From NCBI GenBank assembly GCA_964617585.1, contig CAZTXS010000007.1, positions 11,446 to 75,445 of the forward strand: a DNA stretch of 64,000 nt. Reading direction: 5' to 3'. Positions 12,204 to 62,605 of this stretch are shown here, piece after piece. Position 1 is the stretch's first letter, and each line of letters begins with the position of its first letter. The notes under the pieces are model-generated. The model worked only from the letters and a program-made list of their open reading frames with translations, was not told where the DNA came from and ran no database searches. This stretch comes from an uncultured Ruminococcus sp. GTDB lineage: Bacteria > Bacillota > Clostridia > Oscillospirales > Ruminococcaceae. The position numbers and the translations under genes are program-made.

Positions 12204-12346
12204 TTCAATAAGAGCTTGCCCGTTATTCAACGCGGCAAGGGTCGGCATTTCCGACCGGCCGGTCAGTAGGGGATTGTATCTCGCTGCTGATCGGCTAATG
12301 AAACCCGCCGCCTATAGAGGCGGGGACATCTTGACTTAGTTATAAT
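12204..12346 (+). repeat. Modular intergenic repeat, copy C1 (L-M1-M2-R); the consensus reads on the + strand
   Basis: TTCAATAAGAGCTTGCCCGTTATTCAACGCGGCAAGGGTCGGCATTTCCGACCGGCCGGTCAGTAGGGGATTGTATCTCGCTGCTGATCGGCTAATGAAACCCGCCGCCTATAGAGGCGGGGACATCTTGACTTAGTTATAAT. It lies between the pyrG stop and its terminator. Confidence 0.9.
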
Positions 12347-14061: not shown

Positions 14062-14207
14062 TTCAATAAGGGCTTGCCCGTCATTCAATACGGCAAGGGT
14101 CGGCGCAGTGCCGACCGGCCGTTCAGTAGGGGATTGTATCCAGCTACTGAACGGGTAACGAAATCCGCCGCCTATAGAGGCGGTGGACATTTTGCCTTAG
14201 TTATATT
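14062..14207 (+). repeat. Modular intergenic repeat, copy C2 (L-M1-M2-R); the consensus reads on the + strand
   Basis: TTCAATAAGGGCTTGCCCGTCATTCAATACGGCAAGGGTCGGCGCAGTGCCGACCGGCCGTTCAGTAGGGGATTGTATCCAGCTACTGAACGGGTAACGAAATCCGCCGCCTATAGAGGCGGTGGACATTTTGCCTTAGTTATATT. It lies between the predicted pyrG promoter and pyrG. Confidence 0.9.
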
Positions 14208-19337: not shown

Positions 19338-19426
19338 TCATTCGACACGGCAAGGGTAGGCATTGCCGACCGGGTAATGGAATCCGCCGCTTATAGAGGC
19401 GGAGGACGTCTTGCCTAAGTTATATG
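19338..19426 (+). repeat. Modular intergenic repeat, copy C3 (truncated L, M1, R; no M2); the consensus reads on the + strand
   Basis: TCATTCGACACGGCAAGGGTAGGCATTGCCGACCGGGTAATGGAATCCGCCGCTTATAGAGGCGGAGGACGTCTTGCCTAAGTTATATG. The L hairpin is missing, and the copy is preceded by TATAAT. Confidence 0.85.
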
Positions 19427-20903: not shown

Positions 20904-20931
20904 TTCAATAGGGCTTGCCCGTCATTATAAA
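20904..20931 (+). repeat. Solo L-box of the repeat family (copy La)
   Basis: TTCAATAGGGCTTGCCCGTCATTATAAA. It lies between the T-box terminator and the leuA start, in sense orientation. Confidence 0.8.
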
Positions 20932-23510: not shown

Positions 23511-23647
23511 TATAACCTAGATAAGATATCCCCCTCTATAGGCGGCGGGTTCCATTACCCGGTCAGCAACGGGATACATCCCCTCTGACCGGCCGGTCTG
23601 CATTGCCGACCCTTGCCGCATTGAATAACGGACAAGCCCTTACTGAA
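23511..23647 (-). repeat. Modular intergenic repeat, copy C4 (L-M1-M2-R); the consensus reads on the - strand
   Basis: The + strand reads TATAACCTAGATAAGATATCCCCCTCTATAGGCGGCGGGTTCCATTACCCGGTCAGCAACGGGATACATCCCCTCTGACCGGCCGGTCTGCATTGCCGACCCTTGCCGCATTGAATAACGGACAAGCCCTTACTGAA. It lies between the stop at 23446 and the terminator at 23651. Confidence 0.9.
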
Positions 23648-31146: not shown

Positions 31147-31288
31147 TATAATTTAAGCAAGATGTCCCCCCGCCTCTATAGACGGCGGATTCCATTACCC
31201 GGTCACTAGTGAGATACAATCCCCTACTGACCGGCTGGTCGGCATTGCCACCCTTCCCACGTTGAATGACAGGCAAGCACTTATTGAA
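31147..31288 (-). repeat. Modular intergenic repeat, copy C5 (L-M1-M2-R); the consensus reads on the - strand
   Basis: The + strand reads TATAATTTAAGCAAGATGTCCCCCCGCCTCTATAGACGGCGGATTCCATTACCCGGTCACTAGTGAGATACAATCCCCTACTGACCGGCTGGTCGGCATTGCCACCCTTCCCACGTTGAATGACAGGCAAGCACTTATTGAA. It lies 48 nt upstream of asnB. Confidence 0.9.
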
Positions 31289-33248: not shown

Positions 33249-33277
33249 TTTAATAAGGGCTTGCCCGTCTTTATAAT
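33249..33277 (+). repeat. Solo L-box of the repeat family (copy Lb)
   Basis: TTTAATAAGGGCTTGCCCGTCTTTATAAT, in the predicted 5' UTR of the gene starting at 33344, in sense orientation. Confidence 0.8.
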
Positions 33278-33343
33278 AATTATAACGTTTATTTCATAAA
33301 CTTAATATATAAATTCAAACATCAAAATGAAAGGATGATTAAA

Positions 33344-34159: not shown

Positions 34160-34188
34160 TTAAATAAGGACTTGCCCGCCATTATATC
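34160..34188 (+). repeat. Solo L-box of the repeat family (copy Lc, more diverged)
   Basis: TTAAATAAGGACTTGCCCGCCATTATAT, immediately after the terminator and upstream of the interrupted RHH ORF. Confidence 0.6.
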
Positions 34189-34307: not shown

Positions 34308-34481
34308 GTGAGAAAATTGTTTGAAATAAAAAAGAAAAGCTGTACTAATAAGACAGTTTGATTTAACGACGAACTAATTGAGAAAATCGAAAAAATTGCA
34401 GTAAAAAATGACGTTAGCTTCAGTAATGTTGTTATTCAATTCTGTGAATATGCTTTGAAAAATTATTCTAAAAATCAATAA
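34308..34481 (+). pseudogene. Small ribbon-helix-helix (CopG/Arc-like) protein gene interrupted by an in-frame TGA
   Basis: Manual translation gives (V)RKLFEIKKKSCTNKTV*FNDELIEKIEKIAVKNDVSFSNVVIQFCEYALKNYSKNQ, with the stop at 34359..34361, where RHH beta-strands usually carry Arg (CGA). There is no start codon after the TGA. Confidence 0.5.
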
Positions 34482-34511
34482 AATATGACTATTTCATTAA
34501 TAAACCCGCTG

Positions 34512-34547
34512 TTTTTTCGCAGAACATTTACTTCTGCGAAAAATTTT
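34512..34547. terminator. Bidirectional hairpin terminator
   Basis: TTTTCGCAGAA-CATTTAC-TTCTGCGAAAA, with A/T runs on both sides. Confidence 0.5.
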
Positions 34548-34687
34548 AAGAAAGTTTTAAAGCTTTTATGTTTCAGTTGATTTTAATTATCAAAAGCAGA
34601 AAAAAGACAAAAAACAGCCGATTAATGTTTTAGCAAATAAATACTTCCAAAAACCGACCGTTTATGTAATTATTAAAAATGCAAGTA

Positions 34688-36799: not shown

Positions 36800-36801
36800 C
36801 T

Positions 36802-36944
36802 TATAACTAAGACAAGATGTCCCCTCGCCTCTATAGGCGGCGGATTCCATTACCCGTTCAGCAGCGGGATACAATCCCCTACTGAACGACCGGTCGGCAA
36901 TGCCGACCCTTGCCGCATTGAATGGCGGGCAAGCCCTTATTGAA
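36802..36944 (-). repeat. Modular intergenic repeat, copy C6 (L-M1-M2-R); the consensus reads on the - strand
   Basis: The + strand reads TATAACTAAGACAAGATGTCCCCTCGCCTCTATAGGCGGCGGATTCCATTACCCGTTCAGCAGCGGGATACAATCCCCTACTGAACGACCGGTCGGCAATGCCGACCCTTGCCGCATTGAATGGCGGGCAAGCCCTTATTGAA. It starts 2 nt after the pheA stop. Confidence 0.9.
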
Positions 36945-41534: not shown

Positions 41535-41677
41535 TTCAATAAGGGCTTGCCCGTCATTCAATGCGGCAAGGGTCGGCATTGTCGACCGGCCGTTCAGTAG
41601 GGGATTGTATCCAGCTACTGACCGGGTAATGTAACCCGCCGCCTATAGATGCGGGGACATCTTGCCTTAGTTGTTTA
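41535..41677 (+). repeat. Modular intergenic repeat, copy C7 (L-M1-M2-R); the consensus reads on the + strand
   Basis: TTCAATAAGGGCTTGCCCGTCATTCAATGCGGCAAGGGTCGGCATTGTCGACCGGCCGTTCAGTAGGGGATTGTATCCAGCTACTGACCGGGTAATGTAACCCGCCGCCTATAGATGCGGGGACATCTTGCCTTAGTTGTTT. It lies between truA and the next gene of the same strand. Confidence 0.9.
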
Positions 41678-51601: not shown

Positions 51602-51708
51602 TTCAATAAGGGCTTGTCCGTCATTCAACGCAGCAAGGGTCGGCGTTGTCGACCGGGTAATGAAATCCGCCGCCTATAAAGGCGGAGGCATCTTGCCTTA
51701 GTTATATA
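51602..51708 (+). repeat. Modular intergenic repeat, copy C8 (L-M1-R, no M2); the consensus reads on the + strand
   Basis: TTCAATAAGGGCTTGTCCGTCATTCAACGCAGCAAGGGTCGGCGTTGTCGACCGGGTAATGAAATCCGCCGCCTATAAAGGCGGAGGCATCTTGCCTTAGTTATATA. It lies between a predicted reverse-strand promoter and the gene starting at 51557. Confidence 0.9.
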
Positions 51709-51711
51709 TTT

Positions 51712-51740
51712 ATAATACACATTACTTCGCTTTCAGTCAA
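51712..51740 (-). promoter_or_regulatory. Predicted sigma-A promoter of the NusG_II / Gx-transporter operon
   Basis: On the reverse strand: TTGACT (51740..51735), a 17-nt spacer, then TATTAT (51717..51712). The predicted start site coincides with the end of repeat copy C8. Confidence 0.45.
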
Positions 51741-51910
51741 GAACAAAAAAATTCACAAATCTTTTCGATTTTCAATACTTTTTTATCAAATAAACTTGAT
51801 TTTCACTTCAGTTCATGCTAAAATGTAGAAGATAGTTTATGTGTTAATACTACATATTGTAAACTCAAGCATTAATAATAATGTTATACGGATATCTGAC
51901 GCTTAAAATT

Positions 51911-51939
51911 TTCAATAAGGGCTTGCCCGTCATTATAAT
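51911..51939 (+). repeat. Solo L-box of the repeat family (copy Ld)
   Basis: TTCAATAAGGGCTTGCCCGTCATTATAAT, about 60 nt upstream of the -35 box of the predicted murA promoter, in sense orientation. Confidence 0.85.
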
Positions 51940-52000
51940 TGCAATTTAAAGCGTTTCAATTCAAATTAACTAAAAAATCAATCATTTTCGCTTAACATTT

Positions 52001-52029
52001 TTTACACTTAGTAGAATTTACAATATAAT
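52001..52029 (+). promoter_or_regulatory. Predicted sigma-A promoter of murA
   Basis: TTTACA, a 17-nt spacer, then TATAAT. Confidence 0.5.
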
Positions 52030-52131
52030 AATTGATTTTTATTTGTTTTATTGATATAATTGAAAAGATGTGTTATGGCAAAGGTTAGATAGAGATATAC
52101 TTTGCAAATAGAGCTTAAGGAGCGAATAAAA

Positions 52132-53412
52132 TTGGATAAGTACGTTATAAAGGGCGGCACACCGCTTCGCGGCGAAGTCGTTGTGAGCGGCGCCAAGAAT
52201 GCTGCCGTTGCACTTGTTGCGGCAACCATTCTCTGTGATGAACCCTGTATACTCGAAAATGTCCCTGAAATAAGCGATATATCTATCTGCATTAAGATTT
52301 TAAAAGAAATGGGTGCAGATGTTAAAATATTAAATAAGAATACGGTTAAATTTGATACGACTAGCATGACAAGCCCTGTGGTTCCTTATGAGCTTGCCCG
52401 CTCTATGAGAGCTTCAAGCTATTTTCTCGGAACTCTTTTGGGCAGGTTTCATGAAGCTTATGTTCCGCTTCCCGGCGGATGCGATCTCGGCGATAGACCG
52501 ATAGATCAGCACCTTAAAGCGTTTGCTTCTTTAGGAGCTGATTACACTATCGAAAGCGGAACGGTTCACCTTACAACCGAAGCGTTGCTGGGAAATCAAA
52601 TCTACTTTGATTTCATAACGGTAGGCGCAACCATTAACGCAATTTTCGCTGCCGTTAAGACAAAGGGTCTTACAATTATCGAAAATGCAGCTAAAGAGCC
52701 ACACATCGTTGATCTCGCAAACTTTTTGAACTCTATGGGAGCAGACATAAGAGGAGCGGGAACAGACGTTATAAAAATCCGCGGCGTCGATTATTTAAAG
52801 GGCATAACATACGCTATAATTCCCGACCAGATTGAAGCGGGAACATATATGGTCGCTGCTGCTGCAACAAAGGGTAATGTTCTTATCAAAAATGTTATCC
52901 CCAAGCACTTGGAATCTATTACGGCAAAGCTTCGCAAGGTGGGAGTAACCGTAGAGGAATTTGACGAAAGCGTTCGTGTTTCTGTAGACGGACCTATTAT
53001 GAAAACGAGCCTTAAAACAATGCCTCACCCGGGTTTCCCGACTGATATGCAGCCACAGTTTTCAACGCTGCTTACATTAGCTTACGGGACGAGTATAGTC
53101 ACGGATGATATTTTTGATAATCGCTTCAGATACGTTGCAGAGCTGAGAAGAATGGGAGCTGACATTTCCGTTGACGGAACGGTTGCTGTTATTCAGGGCG
53201 TAGGCAAGCTTACCGGTGCTCCGGTTAAGGCAACAGATTTAAGAGCGGGAGCCGCTCTCGTAATTGCCGGACTTGCCGCAGAGGGAATTACCGAAATCGA
53301 CGACATATATCACATTGAACGCGGATACGAAGCAATAGACGAGAAATTAAGAAACCTGGGTGCGGATATTAAAAGAATTTATTATCCTGAATCTATTGCA
53401 ATGACAAGCTAA
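52132..53412 (+). CDS. murA: UDP-N-acetylglucosamine 1-carboxyvinyltransferase
   Basis: LDKYVIKGGTPLRGEVVVSGAKNAAV N-terminus and the catalytic loop LPGGCDLGDRPIDQH. The start is set at TTG 52132, with AAGGAG 9 nt upstream. Confidence 0.9.
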   Translation: MDKYVIKGGTPLRGEVVVSGAKNAAVALVAATILCDEPCILENVPEISDISICIKILKEMGADVKILNKNTVKFDTTSMTSPVVPYELARSMRASSYFLGTLLGRFHEAYVPLPGGCDLGDRPIDQHLKAFASLGADYTIESGTVHLTTEALLGNQIYFDFITVGATINAIFAAVKTKGLTIIENAAKEPHIVDLANFLNSMGADIRGAGTDVIKIRGVDYLKGITYAIIPDQIEAGTYMVAAAATKGNVLIKNVIPKHLESITAKLRKVGVTVEEFDESVRVSVDGPIMKTSLKTMPHPGFPTDMQPQFSTLLTLAYGTSIVTDDIFDNRFRYVAELRRMGADISVDGTVAVIQGVGKLTGAPVKATDLRAGAALVIAGLAAEGITEIDDIYHIERGYEAIDEKLRNLGADIKRIYYPESIAMTS

Positions 53413-53427
53413 TCTGACTAAAAACTA

Positions 53428-53456
53428 CGGGCGGCTTAATGCCGCTCTTTTATTTT
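53428..53456 (+). terminator. Rho-independent terminator after murA
   Basis: GGGCGGC-TTAAT-GCCGCTC followed by TTTTATTTT. Confidence 0.6.
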
Positions 53457-53488
53457 GAATTTAGTAAACAGAAAGGATTTATACATAA

Positions 53489-54280
53489 ATGGCAAGAGTT
53501 TATCCCCTGTTTTCATCAAGCAAAGGCAACGCAGCCTTTATAGGCAGTGAAAAGGAAGGAATACTGATTGATTCGGGAGTAAGCTGCAAAATGCTGACAA
53601 ATGCTCTTTATGATAACGGTTTATCTCCTGAAGCTGTTAAAGGTATTTTCATCACTCACGAGCATACCGACCATATTAAAGGACTTAAGGTTTTCACCAA
53701 AAACTATTCAGTTAAGGTTTTTGCGGGAAACAAAAATCTTGACTATTTGATTTCGCAAAACCATATTTCATCTGGCTCGCAGATTGAAGAAATAGAAGTT
53801 GACGGAAAGGCGATAGAATTCTGCGGATATGAAATTTCCGCTTTCTCCACTCCCCACGACGCCAGACAAAGCAACGGCTACAGGATAAAAACTCCTGATT
53901 TGAAAATCATAACTATATGCACCGACCTAGGAAAGGTAACAGACAACGTTCATAAAAACCTTTTAGGCTCGGATCTTGTATTATTTGAATCTAACTATGA
54001 TGAAACAATGCTCAGAAACGGAAGATACCCGTATATGCTGAAGCAAAGAATATTATCCGATCACGGACATTTATCAAACAGCGACAGTGCGTCTGAAATT
54101 GAAAGCCTTTTGAATCTGGGAACCACCCGAATAATCTTAGGACATCTTAGTCAGGAAAATAACACTCCGGCAAAGGCTAAAGAAACTATGCTAAATCAGC
54201 TTTCCGGCTTTGAGTGCGGAACTGATTACATATTAAAGATCGCACCGGTATTTAATGACGGTGAGGTTACAGTGCTATGA
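53489..54280 (+). CDS. MBL-fold metallo-hydrolase (YycJ/WalJ-like)
   Basis: HEHTDHIKG metal motif. About 260 aa. It is followed by rlmH with a 4-nt overlap, as in the Firmicutes yycJ-rlmH arrangement. Confidence 0.7.
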   Translation: MARVYPLFSSSKGNAAFIGSEKEGILIDSGVSCKMLTNALYDNGLSPEAVKGIFITHEHTDHIKGLKVFTKNYSVKVFAGNKNLDYLISQNHISSGSQIEEIEVDGKAIEFCGYEISAFSTPHDARQSNGYRIKTPDLKIITICTDLGKVTDNVHKNLLGSDLVLFESNYDETMLRNGRYPYMLKQRILSDHGHLSNSDSASEIESLLNLGTTRIILGHLSQENNTPAKAKETMLNQLSGFECGTDYILKIAPVFNDGEVTVL

Positions 54281-54762
54281 TGAATATAAATATTATCGCT
54301 GTCGGGAAGCTTAAAGAAAACTATCTTAAATGCGCTGTTTCGGAGTATTCAAAACGCCTGTCAGGCTTCTGTAAGCTAAAGATAACAGAGCTTCCCGAAA
54401 GCAGGCTGTCTGACAACCCAAGTGAAAAGGAAATAGATAACGCTCTCAGCAATGAAGCAAAGCTTATTGAAAATCTTATGAATCAAAAATCTGCATATAA
54501 TATAGCTATGTGCATTGAGGGCAGACAGCTCTCAAGTAAGGATTTCTCTTCAAAAATCAGCGAAATCGGAATAAGCGGAAAAAGTGCGGTAAACTTCATT
54601 ATCGGTTCGAGCTTCGGCATATCCGAGAAAATCAAGTCAGGCTGTGATTTAAAGCTTTCATTGTCAAAAATGACGTTTCCTCACCAGCTCGCCCGGGCGC
54701 TTTTGCTCGAACAGATATACAGAGCTTTTCAGATTTCAAGCGGAGGAAAATACCACAAATAA
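54277..54762 (+). CDS. rlmH: 23S rRNA (pseudouridine1915-N3)-methyltransferase
   Basis: SPOUT-fold, about 160 aa, with IIAVGKLK at the N-terminus and a C-terminal LSLSKMTFPHQLARALLLEQIYRA. Confidence 0.85.
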   Translation: MMNINIIAVGKLKENYLKCAVSEYSKRLSGFCKLKITELPESRLSDNPSEKEIDNALSNEAKLIENLMNQKSAYNIAMCIEGRQLSSKDFSSKISEIGISGKSAVNFIIGSSFGISEKIKSGCDLKLSLSKMTFPHQLARALLLEQIYRAFQISSGGKYHK

Positions 54763-54764
54763 AA

Positions 54765-54800
54765 AGACTATCTGATTTTATTTCAGATAGTCTTTATTTA
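54765..54800. terminator. Bidirectional terminator between rlmH and the convergent lipoprotein gene
   Basis: AGACTATCTGA...TCAGATAGTCT 11-bp stem flanked by A-run and T-run. Confidence 0.6.
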
Positions 54801-54813
54801 TTGAAATTCTTAA

Positions 54814-56313
54814 TTAGCTTTCTGCGGTATAGTCGTTTTGAATTTCCTCAAGCTTTGAAGGAGTGTACTTCTTAAACGCTTTCGCATTCTTAGTTATTTT
54901 GAAGTCCTTTTCCCAGCTCTTAATGAGTTCATCATATTCTTCATATTTCATCTCAGTAAGAATATCTTCATAGCTGTCGCCGTCGATCAGATAATCGGTT
55001 CTCTCTGTAGGATCATATTTTACAATTACATAATAATAATTATCATCCTTGTACAAGGTCGGCTTGTTAAACTTGATTTTCTCGCTGATATAATTTCTTA
55101 AATCAGAAACGTTATCCTCGTCGGAATAATCTAACATAACTTCGTTAGTTGTAAAGTTAGCGTAAACTGCTGTGTCAGCGGTAATAGCCGTGCTGAAATC
55201 AAATAGGTTTGAAGCGCTTGTATCTGTATACCAATCATCAAAGATATAGAATTCCTTTTCAGGATCGTCAGGTCTTTCAGCGGTTTCACCTGATTTTACA
55301 GTCTGCGCCTGCTGAGGAGTACCCTCTTCATATTCATTCTGATTTGCATCATAAAACTTAACAGCGTATTCCTTATCCTCATCAACAGTTGTCGTAGTAG
55401 TTGTTTGAGCTTCGCTTGTGCTGTCTGAGTTATCTGCGTTTTCTGAAACCTCCGCAGCAACAGTTGTATCCGTTTCACTTGTGCTGTCCGTAACAGCGTC
55501 TTCTGAAGCCTCTGCAGCAGTTGTAACAGCGGTCGTTTCTTCGGTTTCAGCATTGTACTGAGAGATAACCTCGTCGAAATTATCATTTTCCTTAGCAAGC
55601 TTTAAATACTTTTTAGCCAAAGCCTTTGCTTCTTTATCAGCTTTCTTTGAAGCCTTTGTCTGTTCCTCAGCCGACTGAGTGGTTGTAGTTTCATCCTCAG
55701 ACGAAGTGCTTGCGGCGGTCGTTGCCTCGGTAGTTCTCGAAATTGAAATAATTTTATATCTCAGATAATTTTCCTTAAGATAGTTTTTAATATCATCGTT
55801 GCTGACTGCCTTTTCTCCGTCTGCTCCGTAATAATAATTAAATATAAGCTGTTTTTGCTTTTCAGCCGTAAAATACTTTGTTACAGAATCCTTGCTGATT
55901 CCCTGTTCAGCAAGATAATCCTCAGTCATACTGTCGACATAATTTTTAACGGCGTCATTAACCTCCTGAGTATCTTCGGTAGACATCTCAAGACCGAGCT
56001 TGTCAAAATGCTTATTTATAGCAACAAGGTCAACGGTGCTCTCATAAGCATAATCAGGAAGATATTCCTTAAGCTTAACAGTTTCTCCCTCGTCGTTTTC
56101 AATTTCCTGATCCATGTAATCAGAGGTTACTCCTGAATAATAAAGAGTGTACATCTGCTCTGTATATTCAGCTAACATATAGTTGATATAAATACCTGCG
56201 TTGACGTCAACATCGTCAACAGTCATTATTTTGCTCATATCCGTGCATCCTGCCATTGAAACAGCCATTATTGACGCAACAGAAAGAGCTGTTATTCTTT
56301 TGATTCCAGACAT
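54814..56313 (-). CDS. Lipoprotein with a SurA-N-like chaperone region, a T/E/A-rich linker and a Listeria-Bacteroides-type repeat
   Basis: Lipobox SMAGC after the signal peptide. The repeat YAVKFYDANQNEY...YIFDDWYTDTSASNLFDF...VYANF is present. The start is set at ATG 56313, with a GGAGG SD. Confidence 0.55.
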   Translation of the reverse strand: MSGIKRITALSVASIMAVSMAGCTDMSKIMTVDDVDVNAGIYINYMLAEYTEQMYTLYYSGVTSDYMDQEIENDEGETVKLKEYLPDYAYESTVDLVAINKHFDKLGLEMSTEDTQEVNDAVKNYVDSMTEDYLAEQGISKDSVTKYFTAEKQKQLIFNYYYGADGEKAVSNDDIKNYLKENYLRYKIISISRTTEATTAASTSSEDETTTTQSAEEQTKASKKADKEAKALAKKYLKLAKENDNFDEVISQYNAETEETTAVTTAAEASEDAVTDSTSETDTTVAAEVSENADNSDSTSEAQTTTTTTVDEDKEYAVKFYDANQNEYEEGTPQQAQTVKSGETAERPDDPEKEFYIFDDWYTDTSASNLFDFSTAITADTAVYANFTTNEVMLDYSDEDNVSDLRNYISEKIKFNKPTLYKDDNYYYVIVKYDPTERTDYLIDGDSYEDILTEMKYEEYDELIKSWEKDFKITKNAKAFKKYTPSKLEEIQNDYTAES

Positions 56314-56362
56314 ATTTTGCCTCCTATTAAAATATTGAATTATGTACTCAATTAACCTATAC

Positions 56363-56391
56363 ATTATATACGATTTTTTATATAAAGTCAA
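56363..56391 (-). promoter_or_regulatory. Predicted sigma-A promoter of the lipoprotein gene
   Basis: On the reverse strand: TTGACT, a 17-nt spacer, then TATAAT. Confidence 0.5.
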
Positions 56392-56438
56392 GTCTTTACA
56401 TTTTAAATGTTAATACAACTTTTTCAAACATAACCCTT

Positions 56439-56462
56439 AATGACGGGCAAGCCCTTATTGAA
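56439..56462 (-). repeat. Solo L-box of the repeat family (copy Le); the consensus reads on the - strand
   Basis: The reverse strand reads TTCAATAAGGGCTTGCCCGTCATT, about 48 nt upstream of the -35 box of the lipoprotein promoter, in sense orientation. It is the only solo copy not followed by TTATA. Confidence 0.8.
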
Positions 56463-56544
56463 TACTATACAGCATTTAAAACTATATTTCAAGCAAAAAC
56501 GCCTGCCAAATTATGACGGGCGTTTAATCTAATATTAAAGCTTT

Positions 56545-57465
56545 TTAATCTGCGTCTTTAGAATTCTCATTATTATCACTGCTGACAGAAGGATCTATAG
56601 GTCCTTCTGCGTCCGACTTTATTTCACCCCAAGTGGTAAGATAAACCTTTGCGAACTTTATATCGTCAAGCGGCTGATAATTGTCGCTGTCAATATCCTT
56701 GACCTCAGCGTTTAAAATCTTATTATAGGTTTCCCAGCCGTCGCAGACCTGACCGAATATTGTATATTGCTGCGCTGCCTCGGGAACTCCCCCGTAACTG
56801 CAAAGCTTATCGGACAGCTCGTTATACACCTTCTCTAAGCTTTCGTCTATTTTTTCACTGCTTTTGACTTCCTTTTTCTTCTCATCTGTGGTTATAGAGT
56901 TACCGAAAAACATAACGCTGCTTCCTGCGACATTTTTCTTCCAGAACCAAAAACCGTCTGTTCCCACAAAGGAACCCAAAGCCCCCTTGAACGTCCACAT
57001 ATCAGAGCTTATTTCAGCGTCAATGGTTTCTGTGTTAGTATCGTCCGTAGTTTCACCGTCGGCAGATTTTGCACCGCCTGTAAAATACAGATGATCTCCC
57101 TTATTGTCATCTTCGTTGCCGGTAACAACCCCAAAAACGTAAGTGTCGTTATAATAACCGTCCTCAACAAGGTTCTTATAAAACTTCACATACTCGGGAG
57201 CTTCATCTTCAAACAGCGCCGCTTTGAATGTTCCCAAATTAGTTTCATAAACAACAACATCTAAATCGTCTGAATACTCCTCATACTGAACGAACTTTAC
57301 ATTCTCATATTTGTTATCGTCGCCGCTATTATTAAAGGTCAAAAAAATTAGAAGAGCCGCCAGAAACACTATTGCTATAAGAGAAAATTTTAAATACTTT
57401 ACAAATGCGGGACTTCTCATAGGATTAGTCTTTTTATTACCCTGACTTGCCATTTTTATCACCAT
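56545..57465 (-). CDS. Membrane-anchored cyclophilin-type peptidyl-prolyl isomerase (divergent)
   Basis: N-terminal TM helix followed by a cyclophilin-like pattern (ETNLGTFKAALFEDEAPEYVKFYKNLVEDGYY...GSSVMFF...IFGQV). The start could be ATG 57453. Confidence 0.55.
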   Translation of the reverse strand: MVIKMASQGNKKTNPMRSPAFVKYLKFSLIAIVFLAALLIFLTFNNSGDDNKYENVKFVQYEEYSDDLDVVVYETNLGTFKAALFEDEAPEYVKFYKNLVEDGYYNDTYVFGVVTGNEDDNKGDHLYFTGGAKSADGETTDDTNTETIDAEISSDMWTFKGALGSFVGTDGFWFWKKNVAGSSVMFFGNSITTDEKKKEVKSSEKIDESLEKVYNELSDKLCSYGGVPEAAQQYTIFGQVCDGWETYNKILNAEVKDIDSDNYQPLDDIKFAKVYLTTWGEIKSDAEGPIDPSVSSDNNENSKDAD

Positions 57466-57492
57466 TTCTGCGGACGTAAACGCCGCCTTATT

Positions 57493-58887
57493 TTACTTTC
57501 TTTTTATTATTGTTCCCTGTCTGGTTTCCTCAATTATAAATCCAAGCTCGGATATTTTATCTCTCAAGGCGTCTGCCAAAGCGAAATCCTTAACCTTACG
57601 TGCCTCACGCCGCTTTTTTGCAAGCTCCATTATTTCTTCGGGAATTTTATCCTCCTTTTCTCTGTTGTAACAGATTCCGAGAACCCCTGTCAGCTCGTCA
57701 AACACTTTAGCGCAGGCTTCAAGGTCTTGCTTTGAAGCGTTACCACCTGCGATAAGAGAATTTATTTCACGAACAAGCTCGAACACCGCAGTAAGTCCGT
57801 CCGCAGTGTTGAGGTCGTCTGACAAAGCGTCAATAAACTGCGTCTTTCTATTATCTGAGAATTCTTTAACCTGTTCGCTTAAAGCTCCGTCTGAAGCTGA
57901 ACTCAGCGCTCTGTCTATACTGTCTCGGCAGTTATATAACCTCTCTAACGATGACTTGCAGGCTTCAAGAAGCTCTATCGAATAATTTATCGGCGTTCTG
58001 TAGTGAGCCTGAATCATAAGGTATCTTATAGCTTCATAACCGTATTTTTCGGCAACGTCACGGGTTGTGAAAAAGTTTCCTGCCGATTTAGACATTTTTT
58101 TATTATCTATGTTGATGTGACCGTTATGCATCCAGTAATGCGCCAAAGGCTCGTCGGTTGCAGCCTCAGACTGAGCTATTTCATTTTCATGATGAGGAAA
58201 GATAAGATCGACTCCGCCGCCGTGTATATCTATAGTTTCGCCTATATAATATTTGCTCATAGCGGAACACTCAATATGCCAGCCGGGTCTGCCGTTTCCC
58301 CACGGCGATTCCCAAAAAGGCTCGCCCTCCTTTGCCGCCTTCCACAAAGCAAAGTCAAGAGGGTCTTCTTTAATATCGTTCACATCAATTCTGGCTCCCG
58401 ACATTAAATCGTCTATCGACTGCTTTATAAGCTTTCCGTAGCCTTCAAATTTCCTTGTTCTGAAATATACGTCCCCTCCTGCCTGATAAGCGAAGTCTTT
58501 GTCAACCAAGGTTTTTATAAGATCAATAATAATATCCATGCTCTCAGTAACCTTAGGAGAAATATCAGCTTCAAGAGCATTCAGTCCGCGGAGGTCGGTT
58601 AGATATTCCTTAATATATTTTTCGGAAATTTCGCTCGCTTCCACACCCTCCTCATTAGCTCTTTTTATTATCTTATCATCGACATCGGTAAAGTTCTGAA
58701 CGAACTTCACCTCATAGCCTATATATTTCAAAAATCTTCTCAGCACGTCGAATACGCAGATAGGACGGGCGTTTCCTATATGAATATAATTATAAACAGT
58801 AGGACCGCAGACATAAATACCCACTTTCCCTTCGTTTATAGGTTTAAACTCTTCCTTTCGCCTTGTTAAAGTATTGTATATTTTCAT
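57493..58887 (-). CDS. cysS: Cysteine--tRNA ligase
   Basis: Class I aaRS with HIGN (HIGH) and KMSKS motifs and the Cys-tRNA synthetase zinc ligands. Confidence 0.9.
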   Translation of the reverse strand: MKIYNTLTRRKEEFKPINEGKVGIYVCGPTVYNYIHIGNARPICVFDVLRRFLKYIGYEVKFVQNFTDVDDKIIKRANEEGVEASEISEKYIKEYLTDLRGLNALEADISPKVTESMDIIIDLIKTLVDKDFAYQAGGDVYFRTRKFEGYGKLIKQSIDDLMSGARIDVNDIKEDPLDFALWKAAKEGEPFWESPWGNGRPGWHIECSAMSKYYIGETIDIHGGGVDLIFPHHENEIAQSEAATDEPLAHYWMHNGHINIDNKKMSKSAGNFFTTRDVAEKYGYEAIRYLMIQAHYRTPINYSIELLEACKSSLERLYNCRDSIDRALSSASDGALSEQVKEFSDNRKTQFIDALSDDLNTADGLTAVFELVREINSLIAGGNASKQDLEACAKVFDELTGVLGICYNREKEDKIPEEIMELAKKRREARKVKDFALADALRDKISELGFIIEETRQGTIIKRK

Positions 58888-58926
58888 AACCTTTTTTCCT
58901 TTACTGAAATTTTATCTGCACAGAGA

Positions 58927-59595
58927 TTATTTTTTCTTAGAATACTTTTCCTTTTCAACCTTGAGCCTTTTAATTTCACGCTCCAGCTCTTCAATCTTCA
59001 TAAGCTGTTTGCAAAGCTCCTGCGACACAGGGTCCGGAATATGAACCTGATCCAGGTCCTGATTATTGCTTACCTTTTTACCTTCTATTCTTACGATCCT
59101 GGCAGGAACGCCTACTGCTGTTGAGTTTTCAGGAACTTCTTCCAAAACAACGGCGTTAGCTGCAATCTTAGCGTTATCGCCTACCTTAAAAGGGCCTAAA
59201 ACCCTGGCTCCCGCACCAACCATTACGTTGTTTCCCAAGGTAGGATGACGCTTGCCGTGCTCTTTTCCCGTTCCGCCGAGGGTTACTCCCTGATAAATCA
59301 GACAGTTATCGCCTATTTCAGCCGTTTCGCCTATAACCACTCCGCTTCCGTGATCAATTAAAAGTCCCTTGCCTATTTTCGCTCCCGGATGAATTTCAAT
59401 TCCGGTCATAAATCTTGAAAACTGAGAAATCAGCCTTGCGACAAGAAAGAATTTTCTTAAATAAAACCAATGCGCTATCCTATGAAAAATAACCGCATGA
59501 AGCCCCGAATACGCCAAAATTATCTCAAGACTTGTTCTTGCGGCAGGGTCTTTTTCTTTTACCATTCTTATATCTTCTTTGATACTTTCAAACAT
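58927..59595 (-). CDS. cysE: Serine O-acetyltransferase
   Basis: N-terminal SATase helical domain plus left-handed beta-helix hexapeptide repeats (GAKIGKGLLIDHGSGVVIGETAEIGDN). GAGGTG SD. Confidence 0.9.
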   Translation of the reverse strand: MFESIKEDIRMVKEKDPAARTSLEIILAYSGLHAVIFHRIAHWFYLRKFFLVARLISQFSRFMTGIEIHPGAKIGKGLLIDHGSGVVIGETAEIGDNCLIYQGVTLGGTGKEHGKRHPTLGNNVMVGAGARVLGPFKVGDNAKIAANAVVLEEVPENSTAVGVPARIVRIEGKKVSNNQDLDQVHIPDPVSQELCKQLMKIEELEREIKRLKVEKEKYSKKK

Positions 59596-59629
59596 TAAAA
59601 CACCTCTGACTTTGTATTTTATCTTTAAA

Positions 59630-59710
59630 TATAACTAAGGCAAGATGTCCCCCGCCTCTATAGGCGGCGAGTTCCATTACCCGTTGAATGACGGGCAAGC
59701 CCTTATTGAA
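59630..59710 (-). repeat. Modular intergenic repeat, copy C9 (minimal L-R form); the consensus reads on the - strand
   Basis: The reverse strand reads TTCAATAAGGGCTTGCCCGTCATTCAACGGGTAATGGAACTCGCCGCCTATAGAGGCGGGGGACATCTTGCCTTAGTTATA. It is wedged between the Cys T-box terminator and the cysE SD. Confidence 0.9.
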
Positions 59711-59715: not shown

Positions 59716-59953
59716 AAACCAAAAAAGCCCCCAAAGCATTTAATGCTAAGGAGGCAGTTTTAACTAAACTGCGGTTCCACTCCGATTTCAACTCAAACCT
59801 TTAACGCAGGATACGTGGACGGATACTTACAGCCGAAATCGGCATTCCCCGCCCAGGCTGGCAGCCGCACTTCACTGTAAACCGCTTGTGCGCTTTCACC
59901 TGCCGCACACTCTCTGAAAAGCTTTATTACAGATACTCTGACTGTTACGCCTT
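59716..59953 (-). promoter_or_regulatory. T-box riboswitch leader, probable Cys specifier (TGC), controlling cysE-cysS
   Basis: The reverse strand carries the AGAGAG and GGTGAAA stem I elements, GAAGTGCG as a candidate specifier, and the T-box sequence AATCGGAGTGGAACCGCAG. The terminator GCCTCCTTAGCATT...AATGCTTTGGGGGC is followed by TTTTTT. Confidence 0.7.
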
Positions 59954-59959
59954 TAAGCT

Positions 59960-60609: not shown

Positions 60610-60755
60610 TTCAATAAGGGGCAGCGCCCCTTAATCAACAACATTTATAAGCAAAAGCCCTTAGGATTCTATGTAGAAGATTAAATTCTCTGCTGAAAGC
60701 AAAAACGCAACCCGCCGCCTATAGAGTCGGGGGGACATCTTGCTTAAGTTATAAT
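60610..60755 (+). repeat. Variant repeat copy C10 (altered L hairpin, unrelated 70-nt centre, canonical R module); the consensus reads on the + strand
   Basis: TTCAATAAGGGGCAGCGCCCCTTAAT ... GCAACCCGCCGCCTATAGAGTCGGGGGGACATCTTGCTTAAGTTATAAT. The terminal TTATAA contains the stop codon (60751..60749) of the upstream reverse-strand gene. Confidence 0.75.
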
Positions 60756-62605
60756 ATGCTGAACTTCTTTTCAGCATAAGATCTATAGAAGCCTATGCCC
60801 TTTACAATTAAAACTGCTTTTCCTCTTTTTTTGTTCTTTTTATATTTCAAAACGTAATCTGTATATTCCTTAAGCTTTTTACTTCCCAGCTTAACAACAA
60901 CAGATTTCTGTTTAACAGCCTTTCCCTTTTTGTATTTAAGGTTTTTAACGTTTTTTATCTTACAGGCTGCAATACTCTTTTTATGTTTGATTCCTACAAC
61001 GCTGCTTTCACCGGAATAATACTTTTTACCGTCTGATGTTTTATATGCCCTGATTTTAAAGTAATACTGCTTGCCGGGCGAAAGCTTTTTTGTAATTGAT
61101 GTAATATCCGCACCTTTAACATTTTTAAGAACTTTAAAATGATTCTTGTCATTTACGGAATACATAATCTGATAACCGTCGGCGTTGCTTATTTTTTTCC
61201 ATTGTAACATAATTTTGCCGTTAGTCAATGATTTTTTTGAAATAATTTTTGTTTTCTGCGGATTTATTATAAAATATATTTTTTTAGAGCCATTATAATT
61301 ACCCATTCCTTTAACCGTAACTATACCCTCTCCGACATAAAAGCTTTTAGTATAAGATATTTTATAATCCTTATTCAGAACGAGGGTCTTTGAACCGTCT
61401 TTTACTGCAACCTTAGGATACAGCTTTGATCCTGTGTACACCATATCGTCGGCATGAAAATAGGTTGCATTGGATATTGACCTTTTTGTAATCTTAAAGG
61501 TTTTTGTTTTAACTCCGTAATAATGTTCTTTTCCCGTACAAGTTATAGTTGCAGTTCCGACATTTACGTTTGAAGTATACTTACAGGTATAATCCACACC
61601 GTTTACAAGCTCGATACCGCCTATAGTGATTTTTACAGCGGGTGTGCAAGGACTTCCCGTATATGCGCATTTTTCATATGAAACCGTTATAATGCCGGCC
61701 GGAAGATATATTTCCGATTTCGGCGTTTTATTCATCGAATAGCTTTCACCGTTCGAAGTAGAAATAATAGTTCCTAAGAGATCCGTTCTGTAAATATCAG
61801 CTCCCGACTTCTCAAGCCTGGTCAGCACTGCCTCTGCCGGAAGCCCGGAAGAATTCTCCGAAGCATCAGCCGTTATCACCGCCGACTTCGGCTTAACTGT
61901 ATTCAAAAATTTCTGAGTTGTACTTGTATTAGAGCCGTGATGTCCTACCTTATAAACATCGCAGCTTAAATCCTCTTCGCTTTTGAGCAGGTCGTTTTCT
62001 TCCTCTTCCTCTGCGTCGCCCATAAACAGATATGACGTTTTACCATACTCCAGCCTTAACACTATCGAGTCGTTATTAAAGTTCTCATCATCAAGCTTCA
62101 GCGGACCTATACATTTTACCTTCAGCTTTTTTCCGTTTACCGTTTCATCTATAAGAATATCACCCGCATTTGTTATAACAGGCTCAATCCTCATAGAATC
62201 TAAAAGCTCGGTAAACTCAATAAACCTTGGAACAGCTTGAAAAGCGCTTGTCATATAGATGTTTTCTATTTCAAAATTACCGCCGCCCACAACAGAAATA
62301 AGTCCTCCTACATGATCGCCGTGCGGGTGCGTGTTGATAAGATAATCTATTTTTGTGATTCCCTGCTCCTCTAAATAATTTATTACGGTTTCACCCATAT
62401 CATAAGTTCCTCCGTCAATAAGCATAACCTCATCGTTGGGAAGCTCTAATAATATTGAATCCGCCTGACCAACGTCTATATAGTGAACCTTTAAAGTTCC
62501 GTCAGCCGCATAAGCTTTATTTGATGAAAAGACTAATATAAAGGCTGAAAACAAAAAAGCCAAAAACACATATACTTGTAATTTTCTGTTTCTTAGGAAA
62601 TTCAT
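60749..62605 (-). CDS. Secreted ComEC/Rec2-related MBL-fold hydrolase fused to Ig-like and Fn3-like repeats
   Basis: Signal peptide, then VHYIDVGQADSILLE...HPHGDHVGG...VGHHGS (the ComEC C-terminal-type beta-lactamase domain), followed by about 330 aa of repeated beta-sandwich-like sequence. Confidence 0.6.
   Translation of the reverse strand: MNFLRNRKLQVYVFLAFLFSAFILVFSSNKAYAADGTLKVHYIDVGQADSILLELPNDEVMLIDGGTYDMGETVINYLEEQGITKIDYLINTHPHGDHVGGLISVVGGGNFEIENIYMTSAFQAVPRFIEFTELLDSMRIEPVITNAGDILIDETVNGKKLKVKCIGPLKLDDENFNNDSIVLRLEYGKTSYLFMGDAEEEEENDLLKSEEDLSCDVYKVGHHGSNTSTTQKFLNTVKPKSAVITADASENSSGLPAEAVLTRLEKSGADIYRTDLLGTIISTSNGESYSMNKTPKSEIYLPAGIITVSYEKCAYTGSPCTPAVKITIGGIELVNGVDYTCKYTSNVNVGTATITCTGKEHYYGVKTKTFKITKRSISNATYFHADDMVYTGSKLYPKVAVKDGSKTLVLNKDYKISYTKSFYVGEGIVTVKGMGNYNGSKKIYFIINPQKTKIISKKSLTNGKIMLQWKKISNADGYQIMYSVNDKNHFKVLKNVKGADITSITKKLSPGKQYYFKIRAYKTSDGKKYYSGESSVVGIKHKKSIAACKIKNVKNLKYKKGKAVKQKSVVVKLGSKKLKEYTDYVLKYKKNKKRGKAVLIVKGIGFYRSYAEKKFSIL

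What the first reader, a model, noticed from the sequence alone, without database searches (positions are those of the whole stretch)
51602..59710. The repeat is modular: hairpin modules are present or absent as units, and every junction falls on a CGG trinucleotide
Alignment of the copies defines four modules. L is a 27-nt imperfect palindrome, TTCAATAAGGGC-TT-GCCCGTCATTCAA. M1 is the hairpin GGTCGGC-ATT-GCCGACC preceded by GGCAAG. M2 is the 11-bp-stem hairpin CCGTTCAGTAG-loop-CTACTGAACGG. R is GTAATGRAAYCCGCCGCC-TATAGA-GGCGGNGG followed by ACATCTTGCCTTAGTTATA. Six copies are L-M1-M2-R. Copy 51602-51708 is L-M1-R, 19338-19426 is M1-R with only the last 8 nt of L, 59630-59710 is L-R only, and 60610-60755 has an altered L and R around an unrelated centre. 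In the full form the module boundaries read ...TTCAAYG CGG CAAGGG...GCCGAC CGG CCGTTCAG...CTGAA CGG GTAATG.... The shorter forms are therefore exactly what deletion between CGG direct repeats, or stepwise nested insertion at CGG, would produce. This recalls the boxA-boxB-boxC logic of pneumococcal BOX elements, but with unrelated sequence.
Basis: seen in the sequence. Interest (0 to 1): 0.65.

Follow-up and report, generated by a model that had tools for sequence, protein, structure and literature searches.

The report
Hairpin mini-transposons derived from IS200/IS605
The modular hairpin repeat is a gene-less miniature relative of IS200/IS605 insertion sequences: it carries the transposon's left-end hairpin and sits next to its TATAA target, its "modules" are single-strand hairpins lost or kept whole, and the CGG junction rule holds only in this one lineage.

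Summary
The repeat is real.

The reverse complement of R (GCAAGATGTCCCCCGCC-TCTATA-GGCGGCGG) aligns with the left end (LE) of IS200/IS605-family insertion sequences. In those ISs it lies after TTTAA(C) and before a promoter, tnpA (Pfam Y1_Tnp) and often tnpB.

Head-to-tail joints in another genome read ...CACGG|TTCAATAAG, so TTATA (TATAA on the active strand) is the target motif.

There are no terminal inverted repeats, target duplications or ORFs. Copies occur in many Clostridia and are near-identical in some genomes.

I therefore call it a PATE-like, non-autonomous IS200/IS605 element.

M1, M2, the L hairpin and a long-range helix (GGCAAG/CTTGCC, closed by AAC/GTT) covary across species.

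Module losses fall at stem bases, between short direct repeats: GACCGG for M2 and AACG for the L-R form. CGG is only their core, and other lineages show the same indels without CGG.

Solo L (TTATAA|TGAC-hairpin-TTATTGAA on the active strand) is what excision at an internal TTGAA would leave.

No autonomous partner with the same right end was found, and the window has no tnpA. It is a new member of a known kind, of moderate interest.

The parts
12204..12339 (+). The transposon 'top' strand is the opposite one. Target motif TTATAA at 12340-12345.
14062..14200 (+). Full element; target TTATAT at 14201-14206. The L end lies 35 nt from the pyrG start codon.
19338..19419 (+). L-less and M2-less copy (starts TCA-TTCGAC-ACGGCAAG); target TTATAT at 19420-19425. 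It has the form expected if the core alone (excised at the internal TTGAA) re-inserted, and it also lacks M2.
23516..23647 (-). Full element; target TTATAC at 23510-23515. GACCGG direct repeats flank M2.
31152..31288 (-). Full element; target TTATAA at 31146-31151.
36807..36944 (-). Full element, used as the representative copy. L 5' TTCAA 36940-36944; L hairpin 36927-36936; internal TTCAA 36918-36922; P2 5' strand GGCAAG 36909-36914; M1 36892-36908; M2 36855-36888; R (the LE hairpin) 36821-36843; P2 3' strand 36811-36816; target TTATAA 36801-36806. It starts 2 nt after the pheA stop codon (36797-36799).
41535..41670 (+). Full element; the target is mutated (TTGTTT, 41671-41676). GACCGG repeats flank M2.
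51602..51701 (+). M2-less element (L-M1-R), joint GTCGACCGG|GTAATG; target TTATAT at 51702-51707.
59635..59710 (-). L-R element lacking M1, M2 and the P2 5' strand; joint TTCAACG|GGTAATG; target TTATAT at 59629-59634. It lies between a T-box leader (59747-59956) and its gene. It is the only R-bearing copy whose reader-strand orientation matches the flanking genes.
60610..60748 (+). Divergent subfamily copy. It has the L-type hairpin GGGGCAGCGCCCC, a different centre, a retained P2 helix (AAGCAA/TTGCTT) and R. The target TTATAA at 60749-60754 contains the TAA stop codon of the upstream gene.
20904..20930 (+). Solo L (21 nt) followed directly by TTATAA. It lies between a T-box (20497-20736) and leuA (starts 20994).
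33249..33276 (+). Solo L plus TTATAA, 59 nt upstream of ORF 33335-34093.
34160..34187 (+). Solo L (diverged) plus TTATAT.
51911..51938 (+). Solo L plus TTATAA, upstream of aroA (starts 52102).
56429..56462 (-). Solo L with a different joint: GTCA-TTAAGGG-TTATG. It keeps about 7 nt of the other end (active strand CATAA|CCCTTAA|TGAC...). It lies 43 nt upstream of gene 54814-56391.

Best explanation
The repeat is a non-autonomous, protein-less derivative of an IS200/IS605-family insertion sequence, that is, a PATE (palindrome-associated transposable element) or MITE-like element.

Shown:
- The LE part is homologous to the LE of ISs that carry tnpA (Y1 HUH transposase) with or without tnpB.
- The element has no TIR, no TSD and no ORF.
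- TATAA flanks only the LE side and is absent from head-to-tail joints.
- All helices covary between species.
- Copies are near-identical in some genomes.

Inferred:
- A Y1 TnpA encoded elsewhere moves the element in trans by single-strand 'peel-and-paste'. It would cut 3' of TATAA and 3' of TTGAA and insert 3' of another TATAA.
- M2' is probably the original right-end hairpin, because it is the last hairpin in the Lutispora-type relatives. The L hairpin with a second TTGAA would then be an outer, second right end.
- Excision at the inner TTGAA leaves exactly the solo-L sites (TTATAA|TGAC-hairpin-TTATTGAA). Re-insertion of the excised core gives L-less copies such as 19338.
- M2 loss and M1+M2 loss are ordinary slipped-strand deletions of hairpins between short direct repeats (GACCGG, AACG).
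For: 1. Link to tnpA. In locus L007 (Selenomonadaceae) the exact R hairpin, read on the other strand, follows TTTAAC. It is followed by TTGACA-N17-TAAACT, an RBS and an ORF that hits Pfam PF01797 Y1_Tnp at E=4e-12.

2. Same LE architecture in other tnpA-bearing ISs. The pattern is TTTAA(C) | ~8-10 nt | GCAAGAA-stem-TCTAWA-stem-GATGAAT. It is seen in L121-L130 (at least 4 different insertion sites, tnpA plus tnpB), L131 (Pectinatus), L132 (Acetivibrio), L133, L219 and viral loci. L135 carries a complete IS with a 152-aa TnpA and a 397-aa TnpB.

3. Alignment A3. It places the window copies and PATEs from other genomes with these LEs. The invariant columns include AGA, the C-rich arm and the TCTA.A loop.

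4. Element boundaries. Contigs of other copies diverge exactly before TTCAATAAG and after GTTATA. A head-to-tail joint GTTCACGG|TTCAATAAG lacking TTATA appears in 3 independent runs. The tandem array in L053 has joints GGTTAGG|TTTAAATCGG, and only its last unit is followed by TTATAA. WTATAA flanks 9 of 10 window copies.

5. No TIR or TSD in the window copies or in 11 near-identical copies from one MAG. No ORF survives the G-run length differences between copies.

6. Distribution. The scan hit more than 110 loci in many Clostridia and Selenomonadales. Depth at the repeat is 30-45 times the flank depth. No neighbouring ORF recurs.

7. Structure. z-scores are -4.6 to -8.3. M2 is 98% paired, with compensatory changes at 6 of 11 pairs, matched by 0 of 500 shuffles (the hairpins were pre-selected for at least 9 of 11 pairs). 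P1, M1 and P2 variants also pair.

8. Literature.
   - PATEs, TAM/TEM motifs and trans mobilisation: PMC10055086.
   - LE and RE hairpins may differ: PMC7290912.
   - Peel-and-paste transposition and the lagging-strand bias: PMC5027513.
   - TTTAA as an IS605 insertion site and TAM: PMC11043419.
Against: - No autonomous IS with the same right end (M2'/L'...TTGAA|) was found. I looked in 80 viral tnpA loci, in 3 DNA-pattern scans of viral contigs, and in the genome loci from the one scan of the species collection. The IS relatives end ...GGAAG-hairpin-AGAATGTCAC|, with an RE hairpin like their LE hairpin.
- The window has no tnpA or tnpB, and the rest of its genome could not be obtained.
- The LE hairpin (R') and the candidate RE hairpins (M2', L') are unlike each other.
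G.U pairs number 27 against 8, and C>T changes 17 against G>A 9. Selection on the top strand would predict the opposite.
- Element orientation follows local gene direction (8 of 9) better than a single replication direction (10 of 15).
- No empty or filled allele pair was observed for any window copy.
Confidence: 0.8

Rival explanations
1. The repeat is a BOX-like mosaic element whose modules are joined or lost by recombination at CGG trinucleotides (deletion between CGG direct repeats, or nested insertion at CGG), with no link to a known transposon family.
For: The M2-less joint GACCGG|GTAATG and the L-R joint TTCAA-CGG-GTAATG both contain CGG. Modules are present or absent as units.
Against: - Only 2-3 independent events support it.
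- The real repeats are GACCGG and AACG.
- The predicted L-R joint TTCAAYGCGGGTAATG is not what is observed.
- Six other joints (5 solo L, and the truncated L of 19338) are not at a CGG.
- The same indels in other species lack CGG.
- The LE homology to tnpA-bearing ISs gives a specific alternative.
Confidence: 0.08
2. The conserved multi-helix fold is primarily a functional RNA, for example a mobile terminator or insulator, an antisense sRNA, or an omega-RNA-like guide scaffold used in trans by a TnpB. Its transposon ancestry would then be secondary.
For: - Strong folds and covariation.
The element therefore usually lies just after a stop codon.
- In IS200-type elements of Selenomonadales the same hairpin plus a T-run forms a canonical terminator ahead of the tnpA promoter.
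- PATEs often encode omega-RNAs (PMC10055086).
- Metatranscriptome contigs contain the repeat.
Against: - No Rfam family matches on either strand, even at E<=10.
- The better-folding strand is antisense to the read-through transcripts that would carry the element.
- The window copies have no T-run after the hairpin on the sense strand.
- The RNA evidence is unstranded contigs only.
- The strand asymmetry vanishes outside the window (G.U 30 vs 33) and may reflect shared ancestry or mutation bias.
- Hairpins are required anyway for single-strand DNA transposition.
Confidence: 0.1
3. The elements form a REP/BIME-like domesticated system. The 22-nt solo L would be the REP-equivalent and the composites the BIME-equivalent, maintained by a single-copy RAYT-type Y1 enzyme and serving the host, rather than being a selfish PATE family.
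For: - Very high density, 15 sites in 64 kb of housekeeping genes.
- A single-hairpin unit occurs both alone and inside composites.
- Window copies are old, 85-92% alike.
- All 5 solo L point towards a gene 43-164 nt away.
Against: - Solo L was found only in this window. None appeared in about 0.7 Mb from other species or among 6 metagenome hits to the same L sequence.
- There is no GTAG-type REP signature.
- Near-identical bursts in other genomes look selfish.
- The putative -35 box TTCAAT matches only 3 of 6 positions, and the promoter scan does not call these sites.
- No RAYT gene could be looked for.
Confidence: 0.1

Closest known systems
PATEs (palindrome-associated transposable elements): ends-only derivatives of IS200/IS605, e.g. 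in Haloquadratum walsbyi, Halanaerobium hydrogeniformans and Geobacillus stearothermophilus ISGst (PMC3119063, PMC7290912, PMC10055086)
   Same: No protein, no TIR and no TSD. Subterminal hairpins. A one-sided 5-nt target next to the LE. The LE is homologous to that of tnpA/tnpB-bearing ISs. Presumed mobilisation in trans. Many copies per genome.
   Different: Much shorter (76-139 nt, against about 270 nt in Halanaerobium). It has a closed 3- or 4-helix fold with optional internal hairpins. It has two nested TTGAA right ends around an extra hairpin. Its right end matches none of the autonomous ISs recovered here. The density is unusually high.
IS605 / IS608 (Helicobacter pylori) and IS200 (Salmonella)
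   Same: The target TATAA resembles the TTTAA of IS605-type elements (PMC11043419, and the tnpA-bearing relatives). The cut sites sit a few nucleotides outside the hairpin feet, as in IS608 (PMC3201880). In the IS relatives the LE hairpin precedes the tnpA promoter and looks like a terminator, as I recall being described for IS200 (own knowledge).
   Different: No tnpA or tnpB. The LE and RE hairpins are unlike each other, whereas in IS608 they are the same.
REP/BIME elements and RAYT transposases of proteobacteria
   Same: A short hairpin unit (solo L) occurs alone and in mosaic composites. Density in intergenic DNA is very high. The Y1 HUH enzyme family is implicated.
   Different: No GTAG-type head. 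Solo units were seen only in this lineage. No RAYT gene was identified. Composites are fixed-order elements with an IS LE, not alternating REPs.
Pneumococcal BOX elements
   Same: Intergenic and multi-copy, built of recognisable sub-sequences, strongly folding.
   Different: No variable number of a middle box, only presence or absence of hairpins. The sequence is unrelated. Here a transposon-family origin can be shown.
Integron attC sites
   Same: A folded single strand closed by ...AAC/GTT... with an asymmetric internal loop next to a second helix. ATTCAAC fits RYYYAAC.
   Different: No gene cassettes and no integrase context: the flanks are housekeeping genes. GTTATAW does not fit GTTRRRY. 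The GTT...TATAA part is explained as the IS target. I considered this and rejected it.

Membership tests
IS200/IS605-derived non-autonomous element (PATE) | No terminal inverted repeats | tested here: met
   The ends are TTCAATAAG... and ...CTTAG. Their reverse complements do not match.
IS200/IS605-derived non-autonomous element (PATE) | No target-site duplication | tested here: met
   The flanks of 10 window copies and of 11 near-identical copies from MAG052 share nothing on the two sides.
IS200/IS605-derived non-autonomous element (PATE) | Conserved 4-5-nt target (TAM) immediately 5' of the LE on one strand only, and not part of the element | tested here: met
   WTATAA lies next to the R end in 9 of 10 window copies. 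It is absent from head-to-tail joints in 3 runs and in the L053 array. The L-side flank shows no conservation.
IS200/IS605-derived non-autonomous element (PATE) | Left end homologous to the LE of an IS that encodes a Y1 (HUH) TnpA | tested here: met
   L007 has an identical hairpin upstream of a Y1_Tnp ORF (E=4e-12). Alignment A3 includes 8 tnpA-bearing ISs. L135 carries a full IS.
IS200/IS605-derived non-autonomous element (PATE) | Right end homologous to the RE of the same IS | tested here: not met
   None of the recovered ISs ends in M2'/L'...TTGAA|. Their REs read GGAAG-hairpin-AGAATGTCAC|. The collections could be searched only in part, so the cognate IS may simply not have been sampled.
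IS200/IS605-derived non-autonomous element (PATE) | Subterminal hairpins on the transposed strand | tested here: met
   R', M2' and L' hairpins are predicted with z = -4.2 to -6.8 on the top strand. M2 covariation is shown.
IS200/IS605-derived non-autonomous element (PATE) | A cognate TnpA present in the same genome | not testable with these tools
   The window has none. The only other public trace of this genome is a 1.9-kb contig.
IS200/IS605-derived non-autonomous element (PATE) | Insertion orientation biased to the lagging-strand template | tested here: inconclusive
   10 of 15 window sites have the top strand on the G-rich strand. In other genomes the gene upstream of the LE is co-directional in 61 of 86 cases. 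Origins and termini of replication are unknown.
Classical MITE (TIR + TSD, DDE transposase) | Terminal inverted repeats and a flanking direct duplication | tested here: not met
Pneumococcal BOX | boxA and boxC ends with a variable number of boxB units | tested here: not met
   No internal unit is repeated within a copy. Variation is presence or absence of hairpins. Similarity to the BOX sequence itself was not tested.
REP/BIME with RAYT | 20-40-nt palindromic unit with a conserved 5' tetranucleotide, scattered singly and in mosaics, with a REP-flanked RAYT gene | tested here: inconclusive
   A solo 22-nt hairpin unit exists (5 copies). There is no GTAG head. The RAYT gene cannot be tested without the genome.
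Integron attC | RYYYAAC...GTTRRRY core sites bounding a folded strand at the 3' end of gene cassettes near intI | tested here: not met
   An AAC/GTT closing helix is present. However, GTTATAW does not fit GTTRRRY, and the flanking genes are pyrG, leuA, pheA, truA and similar.
Any curated RNA family (Rfam 15) | Covariance-model match | tested here: not met
   There is no hit at the repeats at the gathering threshold. Copy 41535 on both strands gave no hit at E<=10.

The most novel reading that the evidence does not exclude
The fold may be kept for a host or RNA-level role, not only for transposition. In the old, diverged copies of this genome, pairing is preserved on the non-transposed strand. 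Reduced forms (solo L, L-R) sit in one fixed orientation 34-164 nt upstream of genes, two of them behind T-box leaders. The family could therefore be on the way to REP-like domestication, acting as promoter-proximal, terminator or antisense-RNA elements. Alternatively it could supply guide-RNA scaffolds to a TnpB encoded elsewhere.
Probability: 0.12. Interest if true: 0.6.

Novelty: new member of a known kind. Interest (0 to 1): 0.35.

Why it matters
It turns an unexplained "modular repeat" into an annotatable element class. The class is a very compact (76-139 nt), highly structured IS200/IS605-derived element that is widespread in gut and rumen Clostridia and Selenomonadales.

- **Assembly and annotation.** The element breaks metagenome assemblies, because many copies sit at contig ends. 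It is absent from Rfam and from the plasmid and phage collections searched here.
- **Mechanism.** The nested double right end, with matching "scar" (solo L) and "core-only" forms, offers a natural experiment on how Y1 transposases choose cleavage sites.
- **Host effects.** Insertion directly after stop codons (TA-TAA gives TATAA) and inside leader regions may affect termination and expression of housekeeping genes.
- **Scope.** It does not reveal a new kind of mobile element.

Tried and rejected
- **Rfam.** The gathering-threshold scan of the whole window found only 2 T-boxes and 3 tRNAs. An E<=10 scan of one copy found nothing.
- **BLAST.** A blastn search with a 118-nt relative of the element (the L054 copy, from another genome) against the plasmid and phage collections gave no match.
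- **Literature.** A string search for the R core and a keyword search for MITEs in Clostridia found nothing.
- **L as a sigma-70 promoter.**
  - Full copies: the hairpin length varies from 10 to 14 nt between lineages, so the spacing is not fixed, and the -10 position reads TCAAYG.
  - Solo L: it reads TTCAAT-N17-TATAA(T), but the -35 matches only 3 of 6 and the scan does not call it. I keep this only as a weak lead.
- **Small ORF on the other strand (ATG in AAGATGTCC).** Rejected, because G-run length differences shift the frame between copies.
- **Serine-recombinase-like crossover at TT.** This was suggested by GTCA-TT-ATAA and by the tandem joints. It was superseded once the head-to-tail joint showed that the element ends ...CACGG and starts TTCAAT, with TTATA outside it.
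- **Integron attC likeness (AAC/GTT closing pairs).** Rejected on genomic context and on the core-site misfit.
- **A recurrent neighbouring gene.** All-against-all clustering of ORFs in 110 loci gave only ABC ATPases, GGDEF/EAL proteins, AraC regulators, kinases and the like.
- **More of this genome.** No sequencing runs are served. One 1.9-kb contig was found. The metagenome scan with the L pattern returned 6 short contigs of related species.
- **Transcription.** Only unstranded metatranscriptome contigs were available, and they were uninformative.
- **An autonomous IS with the same right end.** I searched 80 viral tnpA loci, 3 DNA-pattern scans of viral contigs and 6 contig look-ups for TnpA homologues. 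None was found.
- **Strand of selection from G.U counts.** The signal is clear in the window and absent elsewhere. It remains unresolved.

Full report
**1. The observation**

- The R core (CCGCCGCCTATAGAGGCGG, up to 3 mismatches) occurs at 10 places. It gave 13 matches, counting both strands of this near-palindrome, against 0.01 expected.
- The L core gave 13 matches against 0 expected.
- An nhmmer profile built from the six full copies recovers exactly these sites and nothing else.
- The make-up is: six L-M1-M2-R copies, one L-M1-R (51602), one M1-R with a stump of L (19338), one L-R (59635-59710) and one divergent relative (60610).
- All lie between housekeeping genes (pyrH, pyrG, leuA, asnB, pheA, clpC-like, truA, aroA, pgsA and others) in a roughly 40% G+C Firmicute chromosome.

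**2. The modules are helices of one fold**

L therefore stays outside a 3- or 4-way junction that holds M1, M2 and R (z = -4.6 to -8.3).
- Each helix changes sequence between species but keeps pairing.
  - L hairpin: GGGC/GCCC, GGGGC/GCCCC, GCGGC/GCCGC, GGTGC/GCACC.
  - M1: GGTCGGC/GCCGACC, GGTTGAC/GTCAACC, GGCACTGC/GCAGTGCC, GGCAGC/GCTGCC, GAGGC/GCCTC.
  - Long-range helix: GGCAAG/CTTGCC, GTGAAC/GTTCAC, AAGTAAG/CTTGCTT, AATTAA/TTAATT, GACGTCGA/TCGACGTT.
- For M2, 23 distinct variants are 98% paired. Six of 11 pairs carry double changes, and 0 of 500 shuffles reach the observed score. One caveat: I had pre-selected hairpins with at least 9 of 11 pairs.

**3. The family is widespread**

The hits came from Oscillospiraceae, Lachnospiraceae, Ruminococcus, Lutispora, other Clostridia and Selenomonadales.
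- The core is constant: M2, then GGAAC-R-ACATC, the long-range helix and ...GTTATA. The other arm differs by lineage. In many Clostridia it is the TTCAATAAG-hairpin-CGTCATTCAAC arm, as in the window.
- In one MAG, 6 of about 15 copies are identical.
- Copies often sit at contig ends, and read depth over the repeat is 30-45 times that of the flanks.
- No ORF family recurs next to the element.
- There is no match in Rfam, plasmids or phages.

**4. Identity**

- In Selenomonadaceae locus L007 the same hairpin, read on the other strand, follows TTTAAC. After it come a consensus promoter, an RBS and an ORF beginning MRELHHNAHSVFLMYYHLVLVVKYRRKV..., which hits Pfam Y1_Tnp (IS200-like transposase) at E=4e-12.
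- Homologues of this TnpA were traced to contigs.
  - L121-L130 show one IS at four or more different sites, with tnpA followed by an OrfB_IS605/Cas12f-like tnpB.
  - L131 (Pectinatus), L132 (Acetivibrio), L133 and L219 (Lachnospiraceae) and 80 viral-contig loci were also recovered.
  - L135 holds a complete IS with a 152-aa TnpA and a 397-aa TnpB.
- All of these have the same left end: TTTAA(C) | 8-10 nt | GCAAGAA-[C-rich arm]-TCTAWA-[G-rich arm]-GATGAAT.
- The window element read on its other strand is TATAAC-TAAG-GCAAGATGT-CCCCCGCC-TCTATA-GGCGGCGG-GTTCCATTAC, and it aligns with these left ends (A3).
- Three features fit this orientation and not the opposite one: the loop (6 of 6 positions match), the extra G in the 3' arm, and the GCAAGA motif.

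**5. Boundaries and target**

- I laid contigs of four chicken- and mouse-gut runs on a Scybalosoma copy (L036). Other copies diverge exactly before TTCAATAAG and after GTTATA.
- Three independent runs contain a head-to-tail joint ...GTTCACGG|TTCAATAAG... that lacks TTATA.
- A three-unit tandem array in L053 has the same property.
- So the element proper is TTCAATAAG...CTTAG. The following TTATA(W), which is (W)TATAA on the active strand, is the target (TAM). It flanks 9 of 10 window copies.
- TATAA resembles the TTTAA of the IS relatives found here and of IS605-type elements in the literature (PMC11043419).
- There are no inverted termini and no duplications.
- These are the hallmarks of IS200/IS605 'peel-and-paste' elements and of their protein-less PATE derivatives (PMC5027513, PMC3201880, PMC7290912, PMC10055086).
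- Two window copies sit directly at a stop codon. The TAA stop of gene 60749-62605 forms the last three bases of the TTATAA target. The pheA stop lies within a TATAA(C) just upstream of the target of copy 36807.

**6. Re-reading the modules on the active strand**

The layout is:
TATAA | C..LE hairpin (R')..M2'..M1'..CTTGCC-GC-G-TTGAA | TGAC-[L hairpin]-TTA-TTGAA |.

- Two TTGAA pentanucleotides flank the L hairpin.
- In Lutispora-type relatives M2' is the last hairpin before the end (...CTGAATGAAGTCTCGTTCAA|). I therefore infer that M2' is the original right-end hairpin and that L is an outer, second right end.
- Excision from TATAA| to the inner TTGAA| would leave TTATAA|TGAC-hairpin-TTATTGAA. 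That is base for base the solo-L sequence in 4 of 5 cases.
- The fifth solo L (56429-56462) reads CATAA|CCCTTAA|TGAC..., with both break-points after a TNNAA-like motif.
- Re-insertion of the excised core would give an L-less copy, which is the form of 19338.
- The closing AAC/GTT pair brings the two cut sites next to each other.
- These steps are inference. They fit the sequences exactly but were not observed happening.

**7. The CGG rule**

- M2 is flanked by 6-nt direct repeats, GACCGG|CCGKTCAG...CTGACCGG|GTAATG, in copies 23516 and 41535. The M2-less joint GACCGG|GTAATG is what slippage between them gives.
- The two M2-less copies are 87% alike and may descend from a single event.
- The L-R copy reads TTCAACG|GGTAATG, consistent with slippage on AACG. 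It is not the TTCAAYGCGGGTAATG that the CGG model predicts.
- Solo-L joints and the L stump of 19338 are not at a CGG.
- In other lineages M1 or M2 are absent without any CGG.
- CGG is thus the core of stem-base repeats in this lineage, not a recombination signal.

**8. What remains open**

- I found no autonomous IS whose right end matches M2'/L'. The window has no tnpA or tnpB, and the rest of the genome is not available.
- In the window copies the non-transposed strand folds better. G.U pairs are 27 against 8, and the energy difference is 2.7-16 kcal/mol. C>T changes exceed G>A by 17 to 9 on that strand. Elsewhere there is no asymmetry.
- Element orientation tracks the local gene direction.
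  - The active strand is co-directional with the upstream gene in 8 of 9 window cases and in 61 of 86 cases elsewhere.
  - This agrees only roughly with a lagging-strand rule.
- The reduced forms (5 solo L and the L-R copy) all have the opposite orientation and lie 34-164 nt upstream of genes. Two of them sit behind T-box leaders. This may mean that full elements are not tolerated there.
- Terminator-like and promoter-like matches at the elements are weak.

**9. Verdict**

This is a real, widespread family that I could not find described in Rfam or in the literature searches I ran. It belongs to a known kind, the IS200/IS605-derived miniature elements (PATEs). The CGG mechanism and the BOX analogy are not.

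Noticed in passing
window 20497-20736 (+) and 59747-59956 (-): Two T-box leaders (Rfam RF00230, 98 and 94 bits). Each is followed by an L-bearing element (solo L at 20904; the L-R copy at 59635-59710) before the regulated gene (leuA, and a serine-acetyltransferase-like hexapeptide protein). Any read-through transcript must therefore include the element.
   Followed up: partly
window 60749-60754 and 36795-36806: The TAA stop codon of the MBL-fold/fn3 gene (60749-62605, minus strand) is the last three bases of the TTATAA target of copy 60610-60748. The pheA stop (36797-36799) lies in a TATAAC that is repeated 2 nt further on as the target of copy 36807-36944. TA-TAA stop contexts seem to serve as insertion sites.
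   Followed up: partly
window 19726-20326 (-): Three tRNA genes with an exact 29-nt direct repeat (19839-19867 and 20023-20051) in the spacers between them.
   Followed up: no
window 33335-34093 (+), repeats 33469-33916: The ORF contains a long, imperfect AACTAC/GAC-type codon repeat (low-complexity, Thr/Asp/Tyr-rich). Its only Pfam hits are spurious-looking RIFIN/Stevor matches and a weak SpoIIIAH match. A solo L lies 59 nt upstream.
   Followed up: no
window 44383-45174 and 45272-46135 (-): Two adjacent paralogous genes share 75-77% identical stretches at an 883-nt spacing. They look like the ecfA1/ecfA2 ABC ATPase pair upstream of truA. No repeat element occurs in this tightly packed 42-51 kb block.
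   Followed up: no
L053 (Oscillospiraceae MAG) reverse strand 1-520; L036 2997-3115 in runs X30, X33, X35: Head-to-tail arrays or joints of the element without the intervening target motif. These are tandem insertions using the right end as a target, or circle junctions.
   Followed up: partly
L121-L130, L132, L218: Many tnpA genes of the related ISs stop at about 92 aa (...SASSRLLKKE*), before the catalytic tyrosine region. Some are followed by a 5'-truncated tnpB. One such internally deleted IS nevertheless sits at four or more different sites, so it too is probably moved in trans.
   Followed up: no
L001-L003 and L216 (IMG/VR viral contigs): Phage or prophage contigs carry LE-only remnants (an R' hairpin followed by a promoter but no tnpA). 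One carries a complete L-type miniature element.
   Followed up: no
window 34188-34687: About 500 nt with no ORF of at least 80 aa, very AT-rich, lying downstream of the solo L at 34160-34187. No Rfam hit.
   Followed up: no
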